This document shows, in pieces, positions 3,574 to 56,857 of a stretch of DNA of 64,000 bases; position 1 is the stretch's first letter, and every line of letters begins with the position of its first letter. The position numbers and the translations under genes were made by a program. Location: the NCBI RefSeq assembly GCF_037042905.1, contig NC_087250.1, positions 22,074,001-22,138,000 of the forward strand, read 5' to 3'. The notes under the pieces were generated by a model. The model did no database searches. It worked only from the letters and a program-made list of their open reading frames with translations, and was not told the DNA's origin. This stretch comes from Lytechinus pictus. Its lineage: Eukaryota.

Positions 3574-3852
<279 letters not shown>

Positions 3853-25799: not shown

Positions 25800-27674
25800 C
25801 TGCATGGAAAGTATACACTGTTAAGACGCTGTTTAAAATACTGAACACTGTTTAAGCCCGTCACTCTAACGACTATTGTTTAATGTTTTGAATACGTTGT
25901 TTACAGACATTTTAAACAGTAGTTGAAATCTGAAACATCTTGTTAGCGTGACGGGCTTAAACCACAACGTGCTTAAAACTTGTACAGTAATACGTATAAA
26001 TGGAATTGTGTGTATATGTGATGCATCACACCGAAATGAGAGACAACGCCAGTATGAGTTATTTGTATTTATAGTATCACGTCTCTTGGAGTTCCATACA
26101 TGTCATATGTGTTGTGCACTTACGATGCTTTGTATTTTATGTTGAACGATGACTCGGTCACGATTAATCAAACTCATCCCAACCTATACTTGGATCGTCT
26201 GATGTTTCACCTTTTATGTTCTTGCGCAAGTTGGAATTCGTCAAATCCACTTTTATTAATGATCATTGTTTCCCGTTTCATTACCTTTAATATGATATAT
26301 AACTCGACCCGTAAAAATAAATACAAGTGGATATATAGGCCTTTGAATGCGAGAAGAATTGGGCTCTTGGAAATCAAAATCAAGAGAAAAACGCTTTTGA
26401 AGTTTGACTTCCGTTTTGATTTTGTCACCGCTATGCTAACCGAAATGCCCTAGCAACCGCTTGCCAAAAAGGTGAAACGATTGACCAATGAATCGCTATA
26501 CCTATTGCCTAATACACTGTAACAAAATATAATTTACTTTCGTATACTTATAATTAGATGACATACTTTTACAATTTTTTAAAGAGAAATTGCTTTTTTT
26601 GCTATCGATGAATTATTATCTTTTTAATAAATCATAAAGATAGTATATTGGATGATTTATTGAATCCATTTTTGTGGGTAGCTTCTGGTAATTTCGATCG
26701 ACCAAAAATACATAATATCGATTTCGCTATGCCTACATTCGGTGCAAAGTGGTAGATATGGGCCTATATACCCATGTGAATGCGATGACGTTCTTTATTG
26801 TTGTCATGTGTGAAAGGTTCCTTGCCAAATATGACCAACTATTTTTGACAATTATTATTTCAATGCAAGTGTGGATCTAGAATCATAGGCCTAAGAAAAT
26901 TACCTTTGTCCTCAAAATATAGCAAAAAAAAACCGTACCTGAAAAACAAAAACAAAATGTCATCGATCAGTTATACGGGGTGCGCAATCAATACATTTTA
27001 CATGTTGCTTTATAAGATTATGACAATGTACTGGGTGTGCCCACACTGTTAGAAAATTTATCCTTATAATAAAAAAAGTTCCTGCAGCAGAGTCTCGAGA
27101 ACACCTGTAATATTACCAGACTGTGTAATCTTACAGGAAATTGGTATTTGGTGTATGGAATCTTACAAATTTCCTTGAATAAAACACACTTTTCCCCTTT
27201 TTAAACAGACCTGTTCTGTTAAATTGCAGAAAAACTTGTTTTATGAATTTACAGAATGATTCTGTTATTGCTTTCTGCAAAATCTTCTCTTTTTTCTGTA
27301 ACATCACGGGGATTTTTAACAGTGCAGACCCCCCCCCCCACCCTCGATCCTCGCCTGACTATTTTCCAGTGACGGCTGAACAGGAAAGTACTTATCCTAA
27401 CAGAGCGCTAAGAGTAAGCCCAGTGACATCTTTTGGATTTTGAAGTCAAAACTATATTTCAATGTGTAAGTAATTCATTGTTGTAAGAAAAGGCATCGCT
27501 GCAACATATCGGTTATAACATGTTCTCCCTTAGCGCATTGTTAACACTATAAACGTTGGACGGTCGATGTATAAACTCTCTTTCCCAAAGCTAACATAGA
27601 GGGCCTCGTGACACTCAATCTCTAACTCAGTGCCAATCCCCTCATAGCCAGTGTGGACTAGACTATATACTCAC

Positions 27675-27941
27675 CCTATCTCTGTCATCAGCATAACTAG
27701 AATCCTCAAAGCTTGTCCACACATTATAGATCTCCTGACTCTCAGCCATGCTGTGGATACTGACCAGATGCGCGTTGAGTACCCTACAGGCAACGTCTGC
27801 GTCGAACCAGGTCTTCTTCTCAGAGTTGTAGTAGTAGCACCAGTCATCCACCTTCAAGAATCGATCTGGACAGCACGTGGTAGTACCCTCGGACCGGTAC
27901 GCCATGGCGGCGAGGAAACATAAAGCCAGCAAAAATCGCAT
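27675..27941 (-). CDS. Secreted C-type lectin A (echinoidin-like), coding exon 1 of 2
   Basis: Signal peptide MRFLLALCFLAAMA..., CCP...CYYY...W..A...C....AHLVSIHS; donor GTGAGT phase 0; upstream acceptor at 27962-27963; candidate 5'UTR-exon donor at 29537-29542. Confidence 0.93.
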
Positions 27942-29820
27942 TTTGTAGACTAGTCTTGCCGCTGTAGGGGTGAAAGATAAAAAGAATGAACAGTCGTTAA
28001 TGCTACAGTAGAGATTTTTCGCTAATGCAAATACAAGGACGGATTCAGAAACACAGTAAATGTAATGAAGATGTCAGTCAATAGCAATGAACAGCCGGGA
28101 GGCCTTCTTTGTGGAAGATCATTGACGGACCAGCACAGCAGTGCTGCAAATACAAGGACGGATTCAGAAACACAGTAAATGTAATGAAGATGTCAGTCAA
28201 TGAACAGCCGGGAGGCCTTCTCTGTGGAAGATCATTCTGTGCGGACCAGCACAGCAGTGCCATCCTGAGTTTTGGAGTTCGGAGCTGACGGAAAATTGCA
28301 AATATGACGAATCTGCTGTTTTGATTCACCAAATTTCGACAAAGATTTCTTGGTTGTGTGAAGAGCAATTGGCGATACATTTTCTACACTCGTGAAGATG
28401 TCGTGCTTAATGGAATCGGAAACTCCCTAGGGACACCAACCTATTCCTTTGAAAATCGACCGATAATATTCGGAATAACGCGATAGCTTTGATTGGTATG
28501 GGGGCTCGTGGCAGGATGAGTTGCAACCAAACGAAATTTTGAAAAAACACAACCAATTAAAAACAGGTATTAAAGACTTTTTTGTAATTGAATCGAGTTG
28601 AGCAATGAAACGCTTGTCTTTCTGCACACGGTACCTTGGACTCTGCTGTTTAGATGTGACTGAATAATTATTAGGGAGTTTTCGCATTCAACAACAAAGC
28701 AAATGTATTGAAAATATCCGTCAAATCACAATGAACAGCTGGCTGATCTTTGTCGAAAATTGTTGAACAGCAATTTCGTCAAAAGTTTCGTAAATTGCAA
28801 TACGTCGTTTATCCAGAGTCCGGGACGAAACTGCTGTTTTGACACACCAATTTTCGACAAAGACTTCTTGGTTTTTCTTTCTCATGAATGACATTTGACA
28901 GAACATTGTGTATGTTCTTGAAAGCGTTTTGCTTAGCGGTGCAAATACTATCTATACATGTCAGTGTTGACGAGGTTGTCGATGTAAACAAAGTGGGAAT
29001 ATATTTGTAAAGCACATTTTCACTATTAAGTTTTTTAATTTTAGTCCGATTAATGTATTTAAACTGGACCTTGTCATTACCATGTCGCAAAATAATTCGA
29101 ACACAATATTGCGATAACTATATCGCATACTGTACTACAGCTATAGAATGCGTTTCTAGTCCGTCTTTCTAACGGCAATTGAAACTTTGAAGACCCCGAC
29201 AGGACGCAAAATTGAAATCGATAAAACATCATTAAATCATTTCAAACGCTCTCAAGCGTATAAGCAAATATTCTTAAGCATAATTATATGCCTACTAATC
29301 TGGGAAGTGGCGGATATGCACAAAGCTTCTATTGATAGTAGTTGTTAAGCTTTCGATTGGCTTATGATTTACCGATTTCACTTTTTGGTCGGGGTTTTGG
29401 TCTTTAAACCCAAGCCAAACAAGTCGTGAATATGTATATTTCCCAATAGCACCTTAATTGGCAACTGAATGAAAAAAAAAAATACTATGATTTGAACATT
29501 ATATGACATATCGTCCTCTTTAGAAGCTAATTTCCAACTTACCAATATCCCTTGATGAGCGATTGGAATATCTTGTCAGTCTGCGATTAATCTTTTGACG
29601 AGTATAAATTTCTGGGAGTCGGGAGTGGATTAGCGTCATGTCAGTTGATTCATGGGAATCATTTCTGTCATTTCAGGTGAATAAATATTATTCAAAATTC
29701 AAATGGACTTATCTGGAATGTAATCAAGCACTTTATGATATAGCAAATAATAATATGATAATTGAAGCAGTCTTATCTTGTGCGCGTTAGACTGGGGGGC
29801 AAACGCACTCTGGGACCCGT

Positions 29821-35632: not shown

Positions 35633-36862
35633 CTAGAAGGGGTGAGAAAGAGAGTGGTATTTGTAATTCGCATCATTTATTTATTGTTTTTTAAGGATGG
35701 ATAGAGCTTTTACGTTCTCTTTTGAGGCCACAGGAAACACTCTTTTTGTAGTTTCTGCATTTTATTCAACAATTAATAATCAATTAACATGTTCACATAA
35801 TAGCAAACATATAATGAATACATGTTTAATGTGATTAGATATAAATGAAATTGACTAAGACTGATCATTAGATTATACATAAGCATGTGATATAGTAAGT
35901 TCAGTAAAATACAGGGGCCAGCTATTAGACTTATAATCACAAAGATGATTGAAGCAATAGCAGCCAGGAGAGGGTGCTACATGGAAACCATCATTTTGAT
36001 AAAATAATGTCACAAAATTTAAAATATTGAAAATTAGAAGCTCGGTTAGGAAGAATATAAAATCATGTATGGTAAAAAAAAGTGCAAGGGCGTGCATATT
36101 GGTGAGTGCAGGTGAATGAAATTATTTATACTAATAGGAAACTTTTTCAACGAAGCTTTAAAAAAAAAAAGATGCAGACTGTTCAAAATGATGTGGCAAT
36201 GCATTCCCAATATCTGCCATGGTGGCGTGTCGTCTTATAAGCGAGCAAGATCTTAGAAGTACTGGAAAGCACTCCAAATAGTGCACATAAAGTTCTACAC
36301 TGTTTCTCTCTCTCTCTCTTCCTTGATCTTGTGCGTGTTGTACCTCGTCGTGTTGGTGTGGCCCCATTAATTGTTTTTTGTGTGATGGAATCATATTCCT
36401 GTAACTTCAAGGTCGTGTGTGTGGCAGCATACGATGAGCTCTATCCATTTCTTTTATATCGATGGTGAGTTTCATGAGACATGTTCATTATCATGAGAGG
36501 TTCTTCGTCGACCAATATTTGCTAGCACGGTCCACGAGTAAGAATTGGAGAAAAAAAATAACTAAACGATGAAATGCCATGCAAGCGCGGGGAAGATCAC
36601 CACTTATCACTTAAACTATGTGATCCAGAGAAACCAGTTAGACCGAAGATCTGGCTCTCAAATGATTTATAAGGCCAATTTAGAAATAAAACAGCCTGGT
36701 AGAATTAAACAGCGTGGTATATAGTCACAAAGTGGCCAACAACATTATAGTCGCCATTATATACTACTCGGAATGGGTGGTGACATTTAGAAAGGGATAC
36801 CCACAAAGTCGCCATCATCAGATATAAGGATTGAGTGGGAACCTTAAGAATGATATACTCAC

Positions 36863-37129
36863 AAAGTCACCATCATCTGCTTTACCCTCGTCAAGAAGAC
36901 TCTGCCACAGACCATAGATTTCGTTGCTCTCGTCAGCTCCGTGGATGCTTACGAGTTCAGCACCGAGAGCTTTACATGCCAAGTTCGCTTGATTCCAATC
37001 TTTCTTGGCGGAGTTGTAGTGGTAGCACCAGTCGCCTTTTCGCATGAAGAAATTCGGGCAGCATGACCCCTCGCATAATGGCACCAATATGGTAAGGAGA
37101 AGCAGGCTGGCGGTGAAGACTAAAGCCAT
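36863..37129 (-). CDS. Secreted C-type lectin B (echinoidin-like), coding exon 1 of 2
   Basis: Signal peptide MALVFTASLLLLTILVPLCEG, CCP...CYHY...W..A...C..LGAELVSIH; donor GTGAGT phase 0; upstream acceptor at 37137-37138. Confidence 0.93.
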
Positions 37130-37539
37130 CGTAAATCTTCAGTAAAAAAAAAAAAAAAACGAAAAGGAAAAAAACGAACAGTTAAGGATAAGAGAGGAAG
37201 AATAAGAAAAGATAACAAATTGTATTTGATTAGACTTAAAATATTTTGTAATCTAGCTTGCTCAAGATACTAAAACAAAATAAAACATTCAGAAGAATTC
37301 TGGCTTAGATTATGAATGAGTATAATGAACTTTGCTAAAATGTGAAAATGTATGACAAACTGTTTAGTTTTGACGTTTTGGAAATAAGGGTTTAGAGGTC
37401 AGGGTTGAGGGTTGTCATGGAACCTACCTTCTTGGAAATGTCTTTACACCAATTAAAAAACAAATATTTAAGAGTGGACGTTTCCATAGAACATCTTTAA
37501 ATTCATGGTGATACTATTATCATGGTATTATTATTAGAA

Positions 37540-40316: not shown

Positions 40317-42632
40317 TTTGCACAAACATGCTGTATGACATAAGAGGCAGATTAAGCTATAGTACAGTATGTAAGAGAGCATGTTTGTATTTTCTCTTGA
40401 ATATGTTTAATGATTGACTATCTTTTAAATGATTTGGAAGGCTGTTCCAAATCTGGGGCCCTTGATAGCATATACTTGCTCTGGAAACATCATATTTAAG
40501 AAGTGGAATATATAGGTCTGTAGAATTTCTGCAGTTATATTTATTTACGTTATAGTTATAGAGGAAATATTCATTAATTGAGAGAGGAAGTAGATTATGT
40601 ATAATAGAATACATAAAGACTGCAACGTGAAACTTATAAAGGTCATTCAAAGGGATGATTTGTAGTTTTTTGAATAATGGTTCGGAGTGAGCATAATAAT
40701 TTGAGTTTGTTATAATACGGATAGACTGTTTTTGAAGTTGAAATAATCTTTGGAAAAGGTATCTATGACATTGTCCCCATACAGTTATACCATAAGAAAG
40801 ATGCGAGAAAATCATCGAATAATATAAATTTACAAGGACCCTCAGTGGGAGGAGGTCCCTTACTCTGTATAATGCTCCAGTAAATCTTGATATTTTCCCT
40901 GAAATATAGCCGACATGATCTTTCCAAGTTAATTGTGAGTCTATCCATATGCCAAGAAATTTCACAGTATTTTCTCGTTTTATTTCGATGTTATTTATCA
41001 TTAATTGCATATCACAGTTGATGGATCTGCCTTTCGTGTGGAATATAACATATGAAGTTTTTTTAGCATTGATTTGTAATTTGTTACATAAAAACCATTG
41101 CTCATAGATTCTCAACTCATTTTGTAAGTTATTTTTTATCAATTCAATATTATTGCCTGACAGGAAGAAACTAGTGTCATCAGCAAATTGTATCACTGAT
41201 GTATTAGTACTAATATTTTGAAGGTCGTTGATGTATATTAGGAATAACACTGGCCCTAGAATTGAACCCTGAGGGATCCCGGTAGTAATAATTTTCGGTG
41301 AAGATTTAATATTTCTAATTGCAACATATTGTTTTCGGTTTGATAAATAACTTTTAAACCAGTTAAGAACTAACCCTCTAATGCCATAAAAATATAATTT
41401 GTCAAATAGAATACGATGGTCCATGCAATCGAAAGCCTTCGACAGATCAAGGAATATCCCAACTGTTATCTTCCTCTGTTCAAAAGATTTCACTAATTTG
41501 TCAACAAGCTCAATGAAAGCTAAATTTGTATCATAGCCTTGTCTGAATCCATATTGTTTTGGAGATAAAATATCAGCTTTTCTTAAATACGACATTAATT
41601 TTTCACAAGCAATTTTTTCAAATATTTTGCTAAATACACTCAATACCGAAATGGGGCGATAATTATTCAAAATATCCGTGTCACCACTTTTATAAACGGG
41701 AGTAACTCTTGCAGTTTTAAGGCTATCAGGGAAGACACCCGATTCTAACGATTTTTTTATAATAACATGCAGGGGGCGAATAATAAAATGGATAGTTGAC
41801 TTTATAAGTTTAGTAGTAAAGCCGTCGTATCCGTGACTCTTCTTTAACTGTAGTTTTAATACAATCTTTAGAATATCATTTTCTGTAATATCAGTGAAAA
41901 ACATTGAGTTTACATAGTTACCTTTAAGGTATTGCGTGTGGTCATGTATACAATCGGTATTTTCAGCAATTTTATTGTGTATGGTACTGCCAATAGAAGT
42001 GAAAAACATATTAAAGGATTCAGCAATTGTATGAGCATCACTGGTATAATTTCCGTCACAGTTTATGTTCTTAATATTCTGACATTTTGGCTTTCTGTTT
42101 AGTATTTCATTGATGACTTTCCAAGTGGCTCTAGGATTATTTTTCAAATGCTGGAATTTTTCATCAAAGTATTTACGTTTTGCATATCTTATTTCACTGT
42201 TAACCTTATTTCTATGTGCTTTATAATTCATATGGTTAGTAACGGTAGGATTTATAACATATTTTTTAAAAAGTAAATGCTTCTTTTTGCACATTTTTTT
42301 CAATGATTTCGAAAGCCAAGGTTTATCTCTCTTAAAGTATTGTTTCTTTTTTACTTTTATAGGGAAACTATCATCATGGAGTTTTGAATACATGTGTATA
42401 AACATTTCAAATTGCTTATTTACATCTTTTTCATTTTCTAGAAATGACCAGTTAGTGGCTTGCAGTTTGTTACAGAATAGATATACATTTGCATCAGTGT
42501 ACTCTCGGGTTTCATGTTCTTGTACACAATCTAAACTATTATTAGAATTATTTCCGGGTATAATAATAAAAGGAGATAGGTGGTCACTGATATCTACAGT
42601 GAGTATACCCGACTTAATAACCTTTTCGGTTG
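39788..42632 (-). mobile_element. 5'-truncated non-LTR retrotransposon (L2/Crack/CR1 group)
   Basis: RT ORF plus ~570-bp 3'UTR ending AATAAA then (GAATCT)n; inserted within the hAT-like element with no clear TSD. Confidence 0.92.
40357..42630 (-). CDS. LINE ORF2 fragment: end of APE endonuclease plus complete reverse transcriptase
   Basis: The 682-aa ORF has NYRPIS, QYGFR, FLDLSKAFD, GIPQGSILGP, FADD and KFLG motifs. The frame continues upstream without stops through an ISDH endonuclease motif to the truncation point. Confidence 0.92.
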   Translation of the reverse strand, partial: TEKVIKSGILTVDISDHLSPFIIIPGNNSNNSLDCVQEHETREYTDANVYLFCNKLQATNWSFLENEKDVNKQFEMFIHMYSKLHDDSFPIKVKKKQYFKRDKPWLSKSLKKMCKKKHLLFKKYVINPTVTNHMNYKAHRNKVNSEIRYAKRKYFDEKFQHLKNNPRATWKVINEILNRKPKCQNIKNINCDGNYTSDAHTIAESFNMFFTSIGSTIHNKIAENTDCIHDHTQYLKGNYVNSMFFTDITENDILKIVLKLQLKKSHGYDGFTTKLIKSTIHFIIRPLHVIIKKSLESGVFPDSLKTARVTPVYKSGDTDILNNYRPISVLSVFSKIFEKIACEKLMSYLRKADILSPKQYGFRQGYDTNLAFIELVDKLVKSFEQRKITVGIFLDLSKAFDCMDHRILFDKLYFYGIRGLVLNWFKSYLSNRKQYVAIRNIKSSPKIITTGIPQGSILGPVLFLIYINDLQNISTNTSVIQFADDTSFFLSGNNIELIKNNLQNELRIYEQWFLCNKLQINAKKTSYVIFHTKGRSINCDMQLMINNIEIKRENTVKFLGIWIDSQLTWKDHVGYISGKISRFTGALYRVRDLLPLRVLVNLYYSMIFSHLSYGITVWGQCHRYLFQRLFQLQKQSIRIITNSNYYAHSEPLFKKLQIIPLNDLYKFHVAVFMYSIIHNLLPLSINEYFLYNYNVNKYNCRNSTDLYIPLLKYDVSRASICYQGPQIWNSLPNHLKDSQSLNIFKRKYKHALLHTVL

Positions 42633-43534
42633 GAATGAAAACAATGAAATGTGTTATTTGCTGAATAAAATGGAAAAATCTATCACATAATTAGAATTTA
42701 ATTTCAGTAGGCAATTTTTTCCAGCTCGCTTTGCACGCTGGCGACTTTTTACAAAATTTTCCCACATTGCTATGTTTTGCCCCCTCAAAATATTTGGTTC
42801 ATTATGCAACTGGGTTTAATAAATGTGTTGTGTAAAAGCTATATTCTGTATATGCCCGCGATTTGATTAAAATTGCGGAAATCTGCGAGGTTTAAATGGC
42901 TTTGATATCAAGAAGTTCCGGGGGCTCCGCCCCGGACCCCAAACGCGTATGGAAGGGTTGGGCCATGGCCCCAAAAAGTTCTACAGACAAGAACAACAAA
43001 AAAGGAGGAAAGAAAAGCAAAGGAAAATTGTAGGATATGATTTTAATTACTGAAAACAATGTCAAAAAATAGCTCAAAGTTAGATTCTCATGAAAAGTTG
43101 ATTTTTTTCTCGCTCGCTTCGCTCGCTCGGGACTTATATATAAAGCAGCTTTTTAGCACATGTGCTATACTGCGCCCCTCGTTGTTTTTTTGTTTTGTTT
43201 TGTTTTTTACTCTTCACGCTACTGCCGCAAAGAATCCTGTTCACAGTGGCGTACAGACCACCGTGACAAAAAAGGAATCTAAAGAGAGAAGAATTAAATA
43301 TATTATTCTTTGGATATTATGTCAAAATCTATCACAAAATTTGATTTTTGTATCAAAAAGGTGAAAAATTTTGCTCGCTCGCTTCGCTCGCTCGCAACCT
43401 TTTTTAAAGATATATTCTGGCCTTCTCAAAATAGTCGCCTCATTACACCATTACGCCTGTTCATACCATGATATGACCGGGAAATTTTTGGCTCTTGCCC
43501 CCCCTGGCCACCGACCCCTGTTACGCCGCTGTCA

Positions 43535-53048: not shown

Positions 53049-53183
53049 GTGGTCTACTTCACAGCGCCATTCCCGTATATCCTTCTGACTATCCTGTTGG
53101 TTAGGGCTGTCACCCTACCCAATGCTCTGGAGGGCATTATATATTATCTTAAGCCAGACATCACAAGACTTAGCGACAGCCAG
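53049..53183 (+). CDS. SLC6 transporter coding exon 5
   Basis: [45 protein letters not shown]; donor GTAAGG. Confidence 0.95.
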
Positions 53184-55084
53184 GTAAGGTTCCACTCCCC
53201 CCCCCCCCCTCTCTCTCTCTTCTCTGCACCTACACTCCTACATTAAGATGGTATCAGGGGCTGCGGAATGGGGGTGCGGGGGCTCCTTGTTCCAAAACCG
53301 TGTAGAGAAACGTAAAATGACCATCTGATTATGATTTCCCTTTTTGCATGATCAGCCCGCCCCCTCCCCAGACTTTCAAAACCGTTTTACGACCCATGGT
53401 ATCATTGAATATAATTGTGAATTGTTTTACGGTGTTGCCACAAAGTCAAGCTAAGCTTCAACGTGGCAACGCCTGCAACCTTCTAAAATCGTCATGTTGT
53501 AGAAAATGCAACCTTGTTCATATTTATTCATGGTTAAATACTTTGTTGTACTAAGTATTTTCTTTGTTATTATGTATATGAAAGGTTGATGGAACAATAC
53601 ATGAGTGAATGAATGTAAATGCAATTAACGCATAGGGCTTACAAAACGTCAATGACAAATAAACGAATTCGGAGTTTCATGATAGTGTTAATGAATGAAA
53701 CCACGATGGTTATTAAACAAATATATCAGGCTTTGAGAAAGAATAGTGAATATACAAACTCTGCTTTTTGGAAACATGTAAGGAATAAACTGATTGTGTT
53801 GATTTATTAACTTATTCAATGGAAAAATTCATAGCTATTCGAAATAACAAAAATATTGTCCACGAACGCAGGTGGCGATACATGACCCAGTGCATGGTTA
53901 TCCACATATATTATGTTACTGTTATGTAATTTCTTATAATGTATCATTTGTATTATTTCAACTGTATTGAGTTGAATGTAGCTTGAGGTGACCAATATAA
54001 TATCATTCAAATTAGAAAGAAATAATAGAAAATGCAAACTATTCAGGAATATTGATTTTTCTCTGAATCAAGTCCCAGACAACCTCGCTCAAAACGAGCT
54101 TGATTGACTGGCAGAGTTTCTTTGTAATCTGTACAGCTATTTCAAAGGATTTGGTTCGAGCTAAAGAATGTCCCATCTTGAGTAGAGGGGTAGTAAAAAA
54201 ATATCCCCAGTAATTATCGATCAACACTCTTTAGCTCACCTGCATGTTATCAGAGAAGATTACTTCTTGTTGATAAAAAAACGGCGCCTATTCATCAATC
54301 ATCTTGACTATTGATCTGATATTACATCGAATGGGGACGTTTTAGAAATGGAGACATCACACTCTTTAACTATAGACACACGGTTTGCAGGGCCATGTGA
54401 ACGTTTAATTTTAACTTGGAGATGTAAATTTGACAAGGGGTTCATTACTAAAATCGTTATGAAGGTATTTTGGTCCCAAGAAATTCGACAAGCAAAAAAA
54501 AAAAAGGGGGGGGGTTCACTAAAAAAATTGGATGTATGTTATTATTTTCCCTAGAAATTTGACAAGCAAAAAAACTTTGAAATTTATAAATTTTGACAAG
54601 CAAAAAAAAAAGAAGTTTCACTTCCAAGTATAGGTCATTTTGCTTACAATTGTTATTTTTAATACCTTTCAGAATTCTAAGGGGTGCTGCCTCTGGAGAA
54701 TAATACACACAGTACCCCCAAGGAAAATCTTGTGGGTGCTTCAGCACCCCCGCTTTCCATATATTTTTCTGATTGTGCACGTGGGGAACGCTAAAAGACT
54801 TAACCGCCCTTTCACACGGTAAATAAAATCGTAATTTGAATGATGATTCCAGTGAAAAATAAGGCTAATGACGAAACCAAACTAGATTGTGATTAGAATC
54901 ACGCACGACTACAATCATCATTACAATGATGATTCAAGATTCACGAGTGAAAAGGCCCTTAGACCAGCATGTATCGTGAATGAAATGCATTGTAATGTAG
55001 AAGCAATCAAGAATATTGATTCTATAACTGCACTCATCATGCTCATAGTCTAGACCCAAACTGCCCCGTTGAAATATGTGAAAC

Positions 55085-55263
55085 TGGGCGTTGTGGCGTG
55101 CGCCTGTAATCCAAGCTGTGGGGAAGTTACAAATTGATGCAGAGGTTCGAGGTTCGAGCCCTGGTCACGTCTTTCGGATGGTGACGTTAAAGGTCGGTCC
55201 CAGACGTAAATAATCATATCTGATTGATACACGTCTGACAAAACTCAAATACACACACACACA
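55085..55263 (+). mobile_element. SINE-like element with 7SL (SRP Alu-domain)-like head, B box, V-domain-like core and (CA)n tail
   Basis: GGGCGTTGTGGCGTGCGCCTGTAATCCAAGCT; GGTTCGAGCCC; GTCTTTCGGATGGTGACGTTAAA; second copy at 45849-46002. Confidence 0.7.
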
Positions 55264-56479
55264 TGTGGGGCCTATAAGCTGGCCAAGTACTGGCTCACTT
55301 GCTTTGTAATATTTTCATCCTGGCTCGTTCAATGGGGGATTTGCTCAAAGATTGGCTTTGAAAAGGGGTACTACTAACTAAGGGCCTTTTCACACGAGAA
55401 TCTTGAATCACTCATTGTAATAATGATTGGAATTCGTCTTTAGAATCACCGGACCTTTCACACGAAAATTCGTACCGTAATTTGGTAAAACTTACTGGAA
55501 TTCACCTCCCGAGTAGAATTTGAATTCGTGATTGTGATTAGCGTTAGTGTTTCTAGTTTGGTTTCACACGTGCTAAAAATTCGTCTTTAGCCTTATTTCT
55601 CACTGGAATCATCTTGAAATTACGATTTTTTTTTATTGTGTGAAAGGGCGCTCAAAAGAACCCCGATAACTATCGATCAATGTTCCTTGCTTCAAAATGC
55701 TTTTGATAGCCCTGGATATCAACTTATTGTCCCTCTTGTAAAGCAGAAGCGAGACATGTCTTTGGTTACCCCCACAAAATGCACAACACCAAACGTATGA
55801 AAGTAAAACAGTTATATGATAAATCAAATACAAATATGTTTTATTCCATAACTTTGTGATTTTACATGAAAAAAATATTTCGATTTCGTACAAAATCGAA
55901 ATAAGATATCAACATTTGTATATTATGAAAACTCTTCCCAGGCATGAAATAAATAGGCCTACATTTTTAGGATAAATAGGCTGCTTATACAATTAAAATG
56001 TGTAATGAAACGTTTCGAGTTTAGAGTTTTTTTCTGAAATACACACATATAATATTTTATTTTTGTTACATGTAACATGCATGTAAATGACAAACGCATT
56101 GTATTTTTTTGTATTTACATGTATTTGTTTGGTATGGGATGTGACACAAATTGCTTTCATATTTTTATTGTTTGGTCGCGGTGTTCTCATTGAAAGTCTA
56201 GAATTTTCATTTGAAATCTACATAGTACATTAATATATTTTTTTTTAAGCACTTAAATGACACTCACATTCTCATTTTTATATTTACTTTGTGAGGTATA
56301 AATGGTCTCTGACATAGGCATTCTTATCATATTTTCTTTGTGACGGCGCTTTAGTGTTGAATATCTGATCTCTTTATCTGGAATTTATATACATAGAACA
56401 TTGATATAATTATTATGTGAATTTAAGTAATGTAAGTAACAATGTTATTCTCATTTATTTATTATATTTACTCTGTAAG

Positions 56480-56583
56480 GTATGGATGGATGCTGCGACA
56501 CAAATCTTCTTTTCATATTCCCTTGGACACGGAGTTCTTATTGCTCTGGGTAGCTACAACAGACACAAACATAACTTCATTAG
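56480..56583 (+). CDS. SLC6 transporter coding exon 6 (TM6; not in the ORF track)
   Basis: Manual translation [35 protein letters not shown]; 104 nt; AG/GT. Confidence 0.95.
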
Positions 56584-56857
56584 GTAGGTAACCAGCAACC
56601 GCTGGGGCGACACGACATTTTCTCCGGCGACGATTGCACGGAGCTTTATTTCCTCTAAGATATATATGTTAAGGTTTAGGGTTGCAATAGAGTTTTATGG
56701 TAGGTTAAGGGTATAGTGTTAAATCCAGGGTTGAAGTTGGTCATTCTATCAATGTGTGGAAATTACATCGGAGAAATTGTCGCCGGAGCAAATGTCATGG
56801 CACCCTCGGTGAAGGACTGCTGGAAGGAGCACAGTGTCACACAGTGTCACACAGTGT

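What the first reader, a model, noticed from the sequence alone, without database searches (positions are those of the whole stretch)
55085..55263. Candidate Alu-like (7SL RNA-derived) SINE in an invertebrate: SRP Alu-domain head + B box + V-domain-like core + (CA)n tail
Seen: the element starts GGGCGTTGTGGCGTGCGCCTGTAATCCAAGCT, followed by GGTTCGAGCCC, then GTCTTTCGGATGGTGACGTTAAAGGTCGGTCCC and a (CA)n tail. A second copy lies 9 kb away on the other strand, so it is dispersed. Knowledge: by eye the head matches 26 of 32 positions of the human 7SL 5' end as I recall it (GGGCGCGGTGGCGCGTGCCTGTAGTCCCAGCT). It keeps the GGGCG/CGCCT helix and the UGUNR motif bound by SRP9/14. The TTTCGGATG..ACGTTAAA segment resembles the V-SINE core. 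To my knowledge 7SL-headed SINEs are reported mainly from primates, rodents and tree shrews, and from hagfish. Inference: an independently evolved chimeric 7SL/V SINE family that might exploit SRP9/14 ribosome targeting as Alu does.
Basis: partly seen in the sequence, partly recalled or inferred. Interest (0 to 1): 0.85.

Follow-up and report, generated by a model that had tools for sequence, protein, structure and literature searches.

The report
Sea urchin mini-Alu jumping element
This is one copy of a young jumping element, with over a thousand copies in a sea urchin genome, that begins with the first 45 bases of the animal's own 7SL RNA (the piece that lets human Alu elements jump) and is likely copied by a host retrotransposon with a matching tail; the papers found report 7SL-headed elements only from some mammals and a hagfish.

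Summary
Confirmed, with corrections. Window 55083-55263 is a full-length copy of a young ~175-nt SINE family of the sea urchin Lytechinus pictus: 665-1,162 exact motif matches, about 1,560 copies estimated, median 1.8% from consensus, short target duplications, 5' truncations, tandem copies. It starts at +1 of the host's own 7SL RNA. It keeps only nt 1-45/47, the 5' Alu domain, with a compensatory helix change shared with one 7SL paralog. No 3' part of 7SL is present, unlike all described 7SL SINEs. The head matches in extent the 46-nt domain shown to suffice for SRP9/14 binding and Alu retrotransposition in HeLa cells. SRP9/14 use and Pol III transcription here are inferred, not shown. Seven literature searches found no invertebrate 7SL SINE; Repbase, Dfam and SINEBase could not be checked. 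This scan noted the same family before, at four other places in this genome.

The parts
55083..55263 (+). Full-length SINE copy (181 nt; youngest variant, with short loop 4 and a 7-nt duplication at the B box), in sense orientation in an intron of an SLC6 transporter gene
   Evidence: neighbouring exons 53049-53186 and 56477-56584
55083..55127 (+). 7SL-derived head = 5' Alu domain only (helices 2, 3, 4); holds the presumed A box
   Evidence: 42 identities, 2 mismatches, 2 gaps against nt 1-45 of 7SL paralog L037; 33 identities over nt 1-35 against each of the other six genes; helix pairs checked
55128..55143 (+). Spacer of unknown origin
   Evidence: no match to 7SL, no Rfam tRNA match, no parent element found
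55144..55161 (+). tRNA-type B box (55151-55161) preceded by a 7-nt duplication of its start
   Evidence: sequence; 14 of 56 full-length copies have two B-box cores, 38 one, 4 none
55164..55201 (+). 5' fragment of the Deu (Nin) conserved SINE domain
   Evidence: by eye about 28 of 38 columns against AmnSINE1 in PMC7245038 Fig. S4; 30 of 39 columns against a Deu-like stretch in a LINE 3' UTR of this genome, score 36 against at most 29 in 500 shuffles
55201..55250 (+). LINE-related tail: two-stem hairpin (55201-55237) and A-rich linker
   Evidence: 41 of 51 columns identical to the 3' end of an RNase-H-bearing LINE family, same predicted fold
55251..55263 (+). (AC)n terminal microsatellite, 3-14 units among the 94 copies listed
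55076..55080 (+). Possible 5-nt target-site duplication, repeated at 55263-55267; weak alone, since 6.5% of shuffled flank pairs reach 5 nt
   Evidence: row L001
45849..46004 (-). Second copy, B box deleted, antisense in another intron of the same SLC6 gene

Best explanation
It is a copy of a young SINE family whose first 45-47 bases are the 5' Alu domain of the sea urchin's own 7SL RNA, joined to a B box, a Deu fragment and a LINE-type tail; it is likely transcribed by RNA polymerase III, likely copied by an RNase-H-bearing (I-group) LINE that recognises the shared tail hairpin, and predicted to bind SRP9/14 as Alu does. Shown: composition, boundaries, copy number, youth, tail homology, shared target bias. 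Inferred steps: (1) Birth by a template switch from a B-box/Deu SINE RNA onto 7SL RNA, which replaced the old 5' half (about 0.75). (2) Pol III transcription from the 7SL A box plus the acquired B box about 45-55 nt downstream, ending at a T run in the flank, since the element has no run of four T (about 0.85). (3) Target-primed reverse transcription by the tail-sharing LINE lineage (about 0.8). (4) The head folds as the three-helix 5' domain, binds SRP9/14 and brings the RNA to ribosomes that are making the LINE protein (about 0.55).
For: Seven full 7SL genes exist, and the element begins at their +1 (94 of 116 copies that reach the tail start within the first 4 nt). The 7SL match ends where helix 2 closes. 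The C3-G42 pair of six 7SL genes is U3-A45 in the SINE and U3-A43 in paralog L037; 52 of 56 copies keep it. The five-pair loop-loop complement of the 7SL is kept in the consensus. Nt 48-175 score no better than shuffles against 7SL (17 against 16.7-16.8). Duplications of 6 nt or more flank 25 of 94 copies against 3% of 2,000 shuffled pairs. 4 of 30 core-selected copies are 5'-truncated and one is split by an insertion. Head-to-tail arrays occur (L008, L039, L041, L042). The tail alignment scores 56 against at most 42 for 40 shuffles over 69 loci and recurs at the 3' end of six copies of one LINE family. A 5-nt motif lies just upstream of 11 of 85 SINE insertions against 15 of 425 distant windows (p 0.001) and of 7 of 13 short LINE-tail insertions. 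SINE copy L062 and LINE tails L195 and L212 sit at the same point of one host repeat. In HeLa cells a 46-nt 5' Alu domain binds SRP9/14 and supports retrotransposition (PMC11760393).
Against: No transcript start, Pol III occupancy or SRP9/14 binding was observed. In the full-length RNA, ViennaRNA gives helix 3 only 0.17 (consensus) or 0.35 (window copy) against 1.0 in native 7SL; it reaches 0.9-0.99 only in nt 1-60 alone (no pseudoknot or protein is modelled). The youngest variant turns one loop-loop pair into a wobble. 50 of 94 copies show no duplication of 4 nt or more, and the 94 include tandem and duplicated copies. The best-matching LINE ends in (CAA)n, not (AC)n, and all three long copies examined are broken. 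No duplication was found around three LINE+SINE composites. The target motif was first seen by eye, and several hits lie in the same host repeats. No parent SINE was found. A search for SRP9 in the genome found nothing and is uninformative.
Confidence: 0.8

Rival explanations
1. Same SINE, but the 7SL head serves only as a Pol III A box and start site. SRP9/14 binding plays no part, because the LINE protein finds the RNA through the tail hairpin alone.
For: The tail is a LINE-type hairpin, which suffices for many tRNA SINEs (PMC7245038). The predicted Alu fold is weak in the full RNA. Loop 4 varies among subfamilies.
Against: The 7SL match runs some 25 nt past the A box to the exact close of the 5' domain. 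Helices 2 and 4 stay paired across insertions in loop 4. The family is too young to measure selection.
Confidence: 0.35
2. The copies are not a self-propagating unit but repeated chimeric retrocopies of 7SL fragments switched onto another SINE, or products of DNA duplication.
For: A few copies lie in duplicated DNA (L159/L162, L155/L156, L039-L042).
Against: One uniform junction and shared diagnostic changes in 56 aligned copies, with subfamilies; unrelated flanks on at least 17 contigs; no headless or tRNA-headed partner family among 30 core-selected and 20 tail-selected places.
Confidence: 0.03
3. It is a tRNA/V-type SINE, and only nt 1-35 come from 7SL; nt 34-48 are the start of a V domain.
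For: By eye, 13-15 nt at the end of the consensus head equal the start of the V domain in BivaV-SINE3 rows of PMC4824008 supplement 2. Six of seven 7SL genes match well only to nt 35-41.
Against: Paralog L037 explains the stretch to nt 45, including the compensatory pair. The rest of the V domain is absent.
Confidence: 0.1

Closest known systems
SINE1-1_EBu of the hagfish Eptatretus burgeri (PMC7245038; parts 1-3 of 4 and supplement passages read)
   Same: Young, low-thousands family; 7SL head that starts at +1; chimera with an older SINE; LINE-derived tail with a microsatellite end; non-L1 partner.
   Different: The hagfish element keeps 96 nt of 5' 7SL and the 3' end (whole Alu domain, 7SL's own B box), has a bipartite RTE tail and ~17-nt duplications. 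This one keeps 45-47 nt only, has a tRNA-type B box, a Deu fragment, an I-group-type tail and mostly 4-9-nt duplications.
Alu, B1, Tu and the shrew-mole Urop (PMC13023118, part 1 of 5 read)
   Same: 7SL-derived head with the 5' Alu domain.
   Different: Those arise by a central deletion that keeps both ends of 7SL, and they use L1 through a poly(A) tail. Here there is no 3' 7SL part and no poly(A).
SA46, the engineered 46-nt minimal Alu domain (PMC11760393; part 1 of 8 and passages read)
   Same: Same extent of 7SL, the 5' domain alone; shown there to bind SRP9/14 and to support one round of retrotransposition.
   Different: A laboratory construct with a CMV promoter, human L1 and poly(A). This is a natural family with another LINE; binding is untested.
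Deu-SINEs (AmnSINE1, EbuSINE1, BivaMD-SINE1, sea urchin SINE2-3_SP), including those with a 5S/tRNA hybrid head (PMC4824008)
   Same: 5' end of the Deu domain; a small-RNA 5' piece put in front of a partial tRNA-type promoter, explained there by template switching.
   Different: Only about 38 nt of Deu; the head is 7SL, not tRNA or 5S. The SINE2-3_SP sequence itself was not available for comparison.

Membership tests
SINE (general) | Short, non-coding, dispersed at high copy number with a fixed 5' end | tested here: met
SINE (general) | Retrotransposition marks: target duplications, 5' truncation, variable simple-repeat tail | tested here: met
   25 of 94 with 6 nt or more against 3% of controls, but 50 of 94 with none; 4 of 30 truncated
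SINE (general) | 3' tail shared with a LINE of the same genome | tested here: met
   41 of 51 columns, same hairpin; no intact copy among three long copies of that family
SINE (general) | Transcription by Pol III from internal A and B boxes | tested here: inconclusive
   B-box consensus present; A box assumed from its place in 7SL (PMC7245038); no read-level RNA data obtained
SINE1 (7SL-headed SINEs) | 5' head derived from the 7SL RNA | tested here: met
Alu/B1/Urop/SINE1-1_EBu type | Both 5' and 3' segments of 7SL joined across a central deletion (whole Alu domain) | tested here: not met
   nt 48-175 score like shuffles against 7SL
Alu/B1 type | Poly(A) tail and L1 partner | tested here: not met
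   (AC)n tail behind a LINE-type hairpin
Alu/B1 type | SRP9/14 binding needed for mobilisation | not testable with these tools
   pairing potential kept; predicted fold weak in the full RNA
V-SINE | V conserved domain in the body | tested here: not met
   by eye, the core does not align to BivaV-SINE1/2/3; only a 13-15-nt likeness at the end of the head, which 7SL also explains
Deu-SINE | Deu/Nin conserved domain in the body | tested here: inconclusive
   the first ~38 nt of the domain are clearly present; the other 70-330 nt are absent
Catalogued repeat family (Repbase, Dfam, SINEBase) | An existing entry | not testable with these tools
   databases not available; PMC10886601 (2024, passages) and PMC13023118 (2026) list no invertebrate 7SL SINE

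The most novel reading that the evidence does not exclude
A natural mini-Alu: the first 7SL-derived SINE in an invertebrate, and the only one built from the 5' Alu domain alone. It uses SRP9/14 to reach ribosomes that are making an I-group LINE protein, so the Alu trick pays off even with a LINE that also reads a tail hairpin. It had to borrow a B box because this urchin's 7SL genes keep their canonical B box outside the transcript.
Probability: 0.4. Interest if true: 0.78.

Novelty: new variant of a known kind. Interest (0 to 1): 0.63.

Why it matters
The papers read call 7SL-derived SINEs exceptional, with three reported origins (Euarchontoglires, hagfish, shrew mole), all in vertebrates and all keeping both ends of 7SL. 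This would be a fourth origin, in an echinoderm, with another design and another LINE partner. Its head has the extent of the 46-nt domain that deletion work defined as sufficient in human cells, so it is a natural test of whether SRP9/14 binding, and not just the promoter, is why 7SL heads succeed. The host is a laboratory model, and the family is young, so binding, transcription and mobilisation can be assayed; the insertions may also serve as population markers.

Tried and rejected
Parent or sister SINE with a tRNA head: L055 looked like one but is a copy split by an insertion; all 20 tail-only places were diverged or truncated copies of this family; a canonical-spacing Deu motif gave 1 match, an unrelated Deu fragment. 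LINE with the exact SINE tail: a pattern that excludes the SINE's upstream bases gave 21 matches, 16 of the related LINE tail and 5 SINE copies. B box taken from the 7SL downstream flank: only the box itself aligns. Duplication around LINE+SINE composites: none convincing in L228, L229, L230; L150/L229 had been picked because a SINE lay near it. SRP9 search: no match, control silent. ARAGORN: 0 tRNA genes in the window. Supplements of PMC11481361: 0 hits for three words; file 1 of the PMC4824008 supplement could not be searched. PMC9734144 was irrelevant. The helix 2 and 4 numbering for 7SL was off by one and is replaced; the plus-strand rows were misread and are replaced.

Full report
Observation. 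Rfam Metazoa_SRP matches the start of the element at 31.6 bits, E 2.5e-6, below its gathering score of 70. A second copy lies on the minus strand at about 46004-45849 and lacks 30 nt, including the B box. Both copies are in introns of an SLC6 transporter gene. The proteins nearest to an exon of that gene are named Lytechinus pictus at 97-99% identity, and the record's longest contig equals contig C6 in length, so the host is this sea urchin.

A young dispersed family. The 196-nt query had 1,714 candidates; of the 40 scored, 14 other places were listed at 100% identity over about 180 nt. Exact words gave 665 matches (head), 1,017 (core) and 1,162 (tail), with 0 in each reversed control. On contig C1, 50 of 67 core matches also have a tail match, which gives about 1,560 copies, probably an underestimate. 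Fifty-six full-length copies from the loci give a 175-nt consensus with a median divergence of 1.8%. Subfamilies differ by a 2-nt deletion in loop 4 and a 7-nt duplication at the B box; the window copy has both, and that group is the least diverged (8 copies, mean 0.6 mismatches against 3.5 for the 27 with neither). Of 116 copies that reach the tail, 94 start within the first 4 nt; 25 of these 94 have flanking duplications of 6 nt or more against 3% of 2,000 shuffled pairs, but 50 have none of 4 nt or more, and the set includes tandem and duplicated copies. Of 30 copies selected by the core alone, 25 carry the head, 4 are 5'-truncated, 1 is split by an insertion and none has a tRNA head. Head-to-tail arrays of 2-4 copies occur. 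These are the marks of a SINE.

The head. The genome holds seven full 7SL genes, 272-283 bits. The element begins at their +1. The consensus matches six of them at 34 of 36 columns or better over nt 1-36, and the window copy matches paralog L037 at 42 identities over nt 1-45. The rest of the element scores like shuffled sequence against 7SL, so the 3' strand of the Alu domain is absent. Helix 2 closes the head: the C3-G42 pair of six genes is U3-A45 in the consensus and U3-A43 in L037, and 52 of 56 copies keep it; helix 4 is also intact. The five-pair loop-loop complement is kept, with one more wobble in the short variant. L037 or its ancestor is therefore the likely donor, though conversion of L037 by the SINE is not excluded. 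Against a stable fold: in the full RNA helix 3 has a predicted probability of 0.17-0.35, against 1.0 in 7SL, and 0.9 or more only in nt 1-60 alone.

The body. A 16-nt spacer of unknown origin leads to a tRNA-type B box. The next 38 nt are the 5' end of the Deu domain: about 28 of 38 columns by eye against AmnSINE1 in Fig. S4 of PMC7245038, and a like match to BivaMD-SINE1. A 13-15-nt likeness between the end of the head and the start of BivaV-SINE3's V domain (by eye) is also explained by 7SL and is left open. No parent SINE was found. Six of the seven 7SL genes have a canonical B box 18-42 nt downstream of the gene end, and my pattern found no such box near nt 76-86 inside them. If that outer box is what drives them (untested; a non-canonical inner box is possible), a plain 7SL retrocopy would be silent here, and a 7SL SINE would need a borrowed B box, which is what this element has.

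The partner. A search for RNase H gave 150 matches, many in long LINE-type frames; about 80 overlapping loci were fetched, not all reaching a 3' end. One family ends in a hairpin that matches the SINE tail at 41 of 51 columns with the same two-stem fold; the score of 56 compares with at most 42 for 40 shuffles over 69 loci, and the match recurs in six copies. Sister families have the same geometry with other letters; one has an intact copy with a 364-aa ORF1 and a 1,239-aa endonuclease-RT-RNase H ORF2. Calling these I-group or Nimb-like rests on the domain layout and on my recall, not on a tree; bivalve SINEs with Nimb partners are described in PMC11481361 and PMC4758252 (passages). Target bias is shared: a 5-nt motif lies within 45 nt upstream of 11 of 85 SINE insertions against 15 of 425 distant windows (p 0.001), its 6-nt form was the top-ranked 6-mer, and it precedes 7 of 13 short LINE-tail insertions (3 long copies dropped from the 16 rows, since their upstream is LINE sequence). 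SINE copy L062 and LINE tails L195 and L212 occupy the same point of one repeat. Limits: the motif was first seen by eye; the short tails could be remains of another SINE; the best family ends in (CAA)n; its three long copies are broken. Three SINE copies stand within about 20 nt behind tails of sister LINE families, which fits template jumps or shared targets, but no duplication encloses the composites.

Mechanism. Most likely a reverse transcriptase switched from a B-box/Deu SINE RNA to 7SL RNA and so made the master copy, as proposed for 5S/tRNA hybrid heads (PMC4824008). Pol III would start at +1, using the 7SL A box and the borrowed B box, and stop in the flank, as the consensus has no run of four T. 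The LINE protein would bind the tail hairpin and prime at the target. The head would bind SRP9/14 and place the RNA at ribosomes. The last step is the least certain (about 0.55). It gains from PMC11760393, where nt 1-46 of the Alu domain bound SRP9/14 as well as an 86-nt form and supported retrotransposition in HeLa cells; the rival is that the head is only a promoter. No read-level RNA data were obtained, so transcription is open.

What is known. PMC7245038 (2020; parts 1-3 of 4 and supplement passages) calls the hagfish family the first evident SINE1 outside Euarchontoglires. PMC10886601 (2024; passages) lists primates, rodents and hagfishes. PMC13023118 (2026; part 1 of 5) adds the shrew mole and states that these SINEs all arose after a central deletion of 7SL. 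Also seen: PMC4824008 (passages, part 3 of 6, supplement file 2 whole; file 1 not searchable), PMC6887750 and PMC5786205 (part 1 of 5; passages of the latter), PMC9734144 (passages). Seven searches for an invertebrate or sea urchin 7SL SINE listed none; the library lacks most subscription papers and Repbase Reports, and Repbase, Dfam and SINEBase could not be searched, so a database entry remains possible (about 0.25). It is a SINE1 by the head criterion and not an Alu-type element by architecture or partner.

Earlier notes of this scan. Four unchecked AI notes describe the same family at other places in this genome, with a 44-45-nt 7SL head, a Deu-like body and 1,000-1,600 copies. I had reached that reading before looking; they agree and are not independent evidence.

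Verdict. A real 7SL-headed SINE family in a sea urchin, a new variant of a known kind, with the V label corrected to Deu and a partner LINE lineage identified by tail and target. Interest 0.63.

Noticed in passing
L031-L036, just downstream of the 7SL genes: Six of seven 7SL genes carry a canonical B-box motif 18-42 nt past the gene end, beyond the T-run terminator; L037 has none within 260 nt. One search on this listed nothing relevant.
   Followed up: partly
L031, L035, L036 (contig C10): Three clustered 7SL genes each have a copy of this SINE ending about 35 nt upstream of +1, in the same orientation, with no run of four T between; L031 has two such copies.
   Followed up: no
L139, L174-L178, L187; full ORF in L179:1205-4906: A young LINE family (1,233-aa endonuclease-RT-RNase H frame) whose 3' UTR holds, in all seven copies seen, a B-box-like motif, a CORE-like stretch (by eye) and a Deu-like stretch: a SINE body fixed in a LINE.
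   Followed up: partly
L195, L197, L198, L200, L201, L203-L205, L210-L214: Thirteen insertions of about 55-70 nt that consist only of the LINE's terminal hairpin and (CAA)n, all cut at the base of the hairpin.
   Followed up: partly
L008, L020/L082, L075, L088, bases just before +1: Four unrelated copies are preceded by the same few bases, complementary to the start of the head, like a fold-back of the cDNA end; TA or CA precedes +1 in 26 of 56 copies.
   Followed up: no
window 54800-54962 and 55378-55655: The SINE copy lies between the arms of a long inverted repeat (arms of 76 nt at 79% and 33 nt at 94%), MITE-like.
   Followed up: no
window 40357-42690 (-): 777-aa open frame with a reverse transcriptase domain (PF00078, E 1e-31), a LINE fragment.
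   Followed up: partly
window 3574-3843 (-): Intronless 89-aa frame that reads like dynein light chain LC8 (recalled, not scanned).
   Followed up: no
window 27663-28073 (-) and 36818-37138 (-): Two related first exons that read like secreted C-type lectin-like proteins (by eye; no Pfam match).
   Followed up: partly
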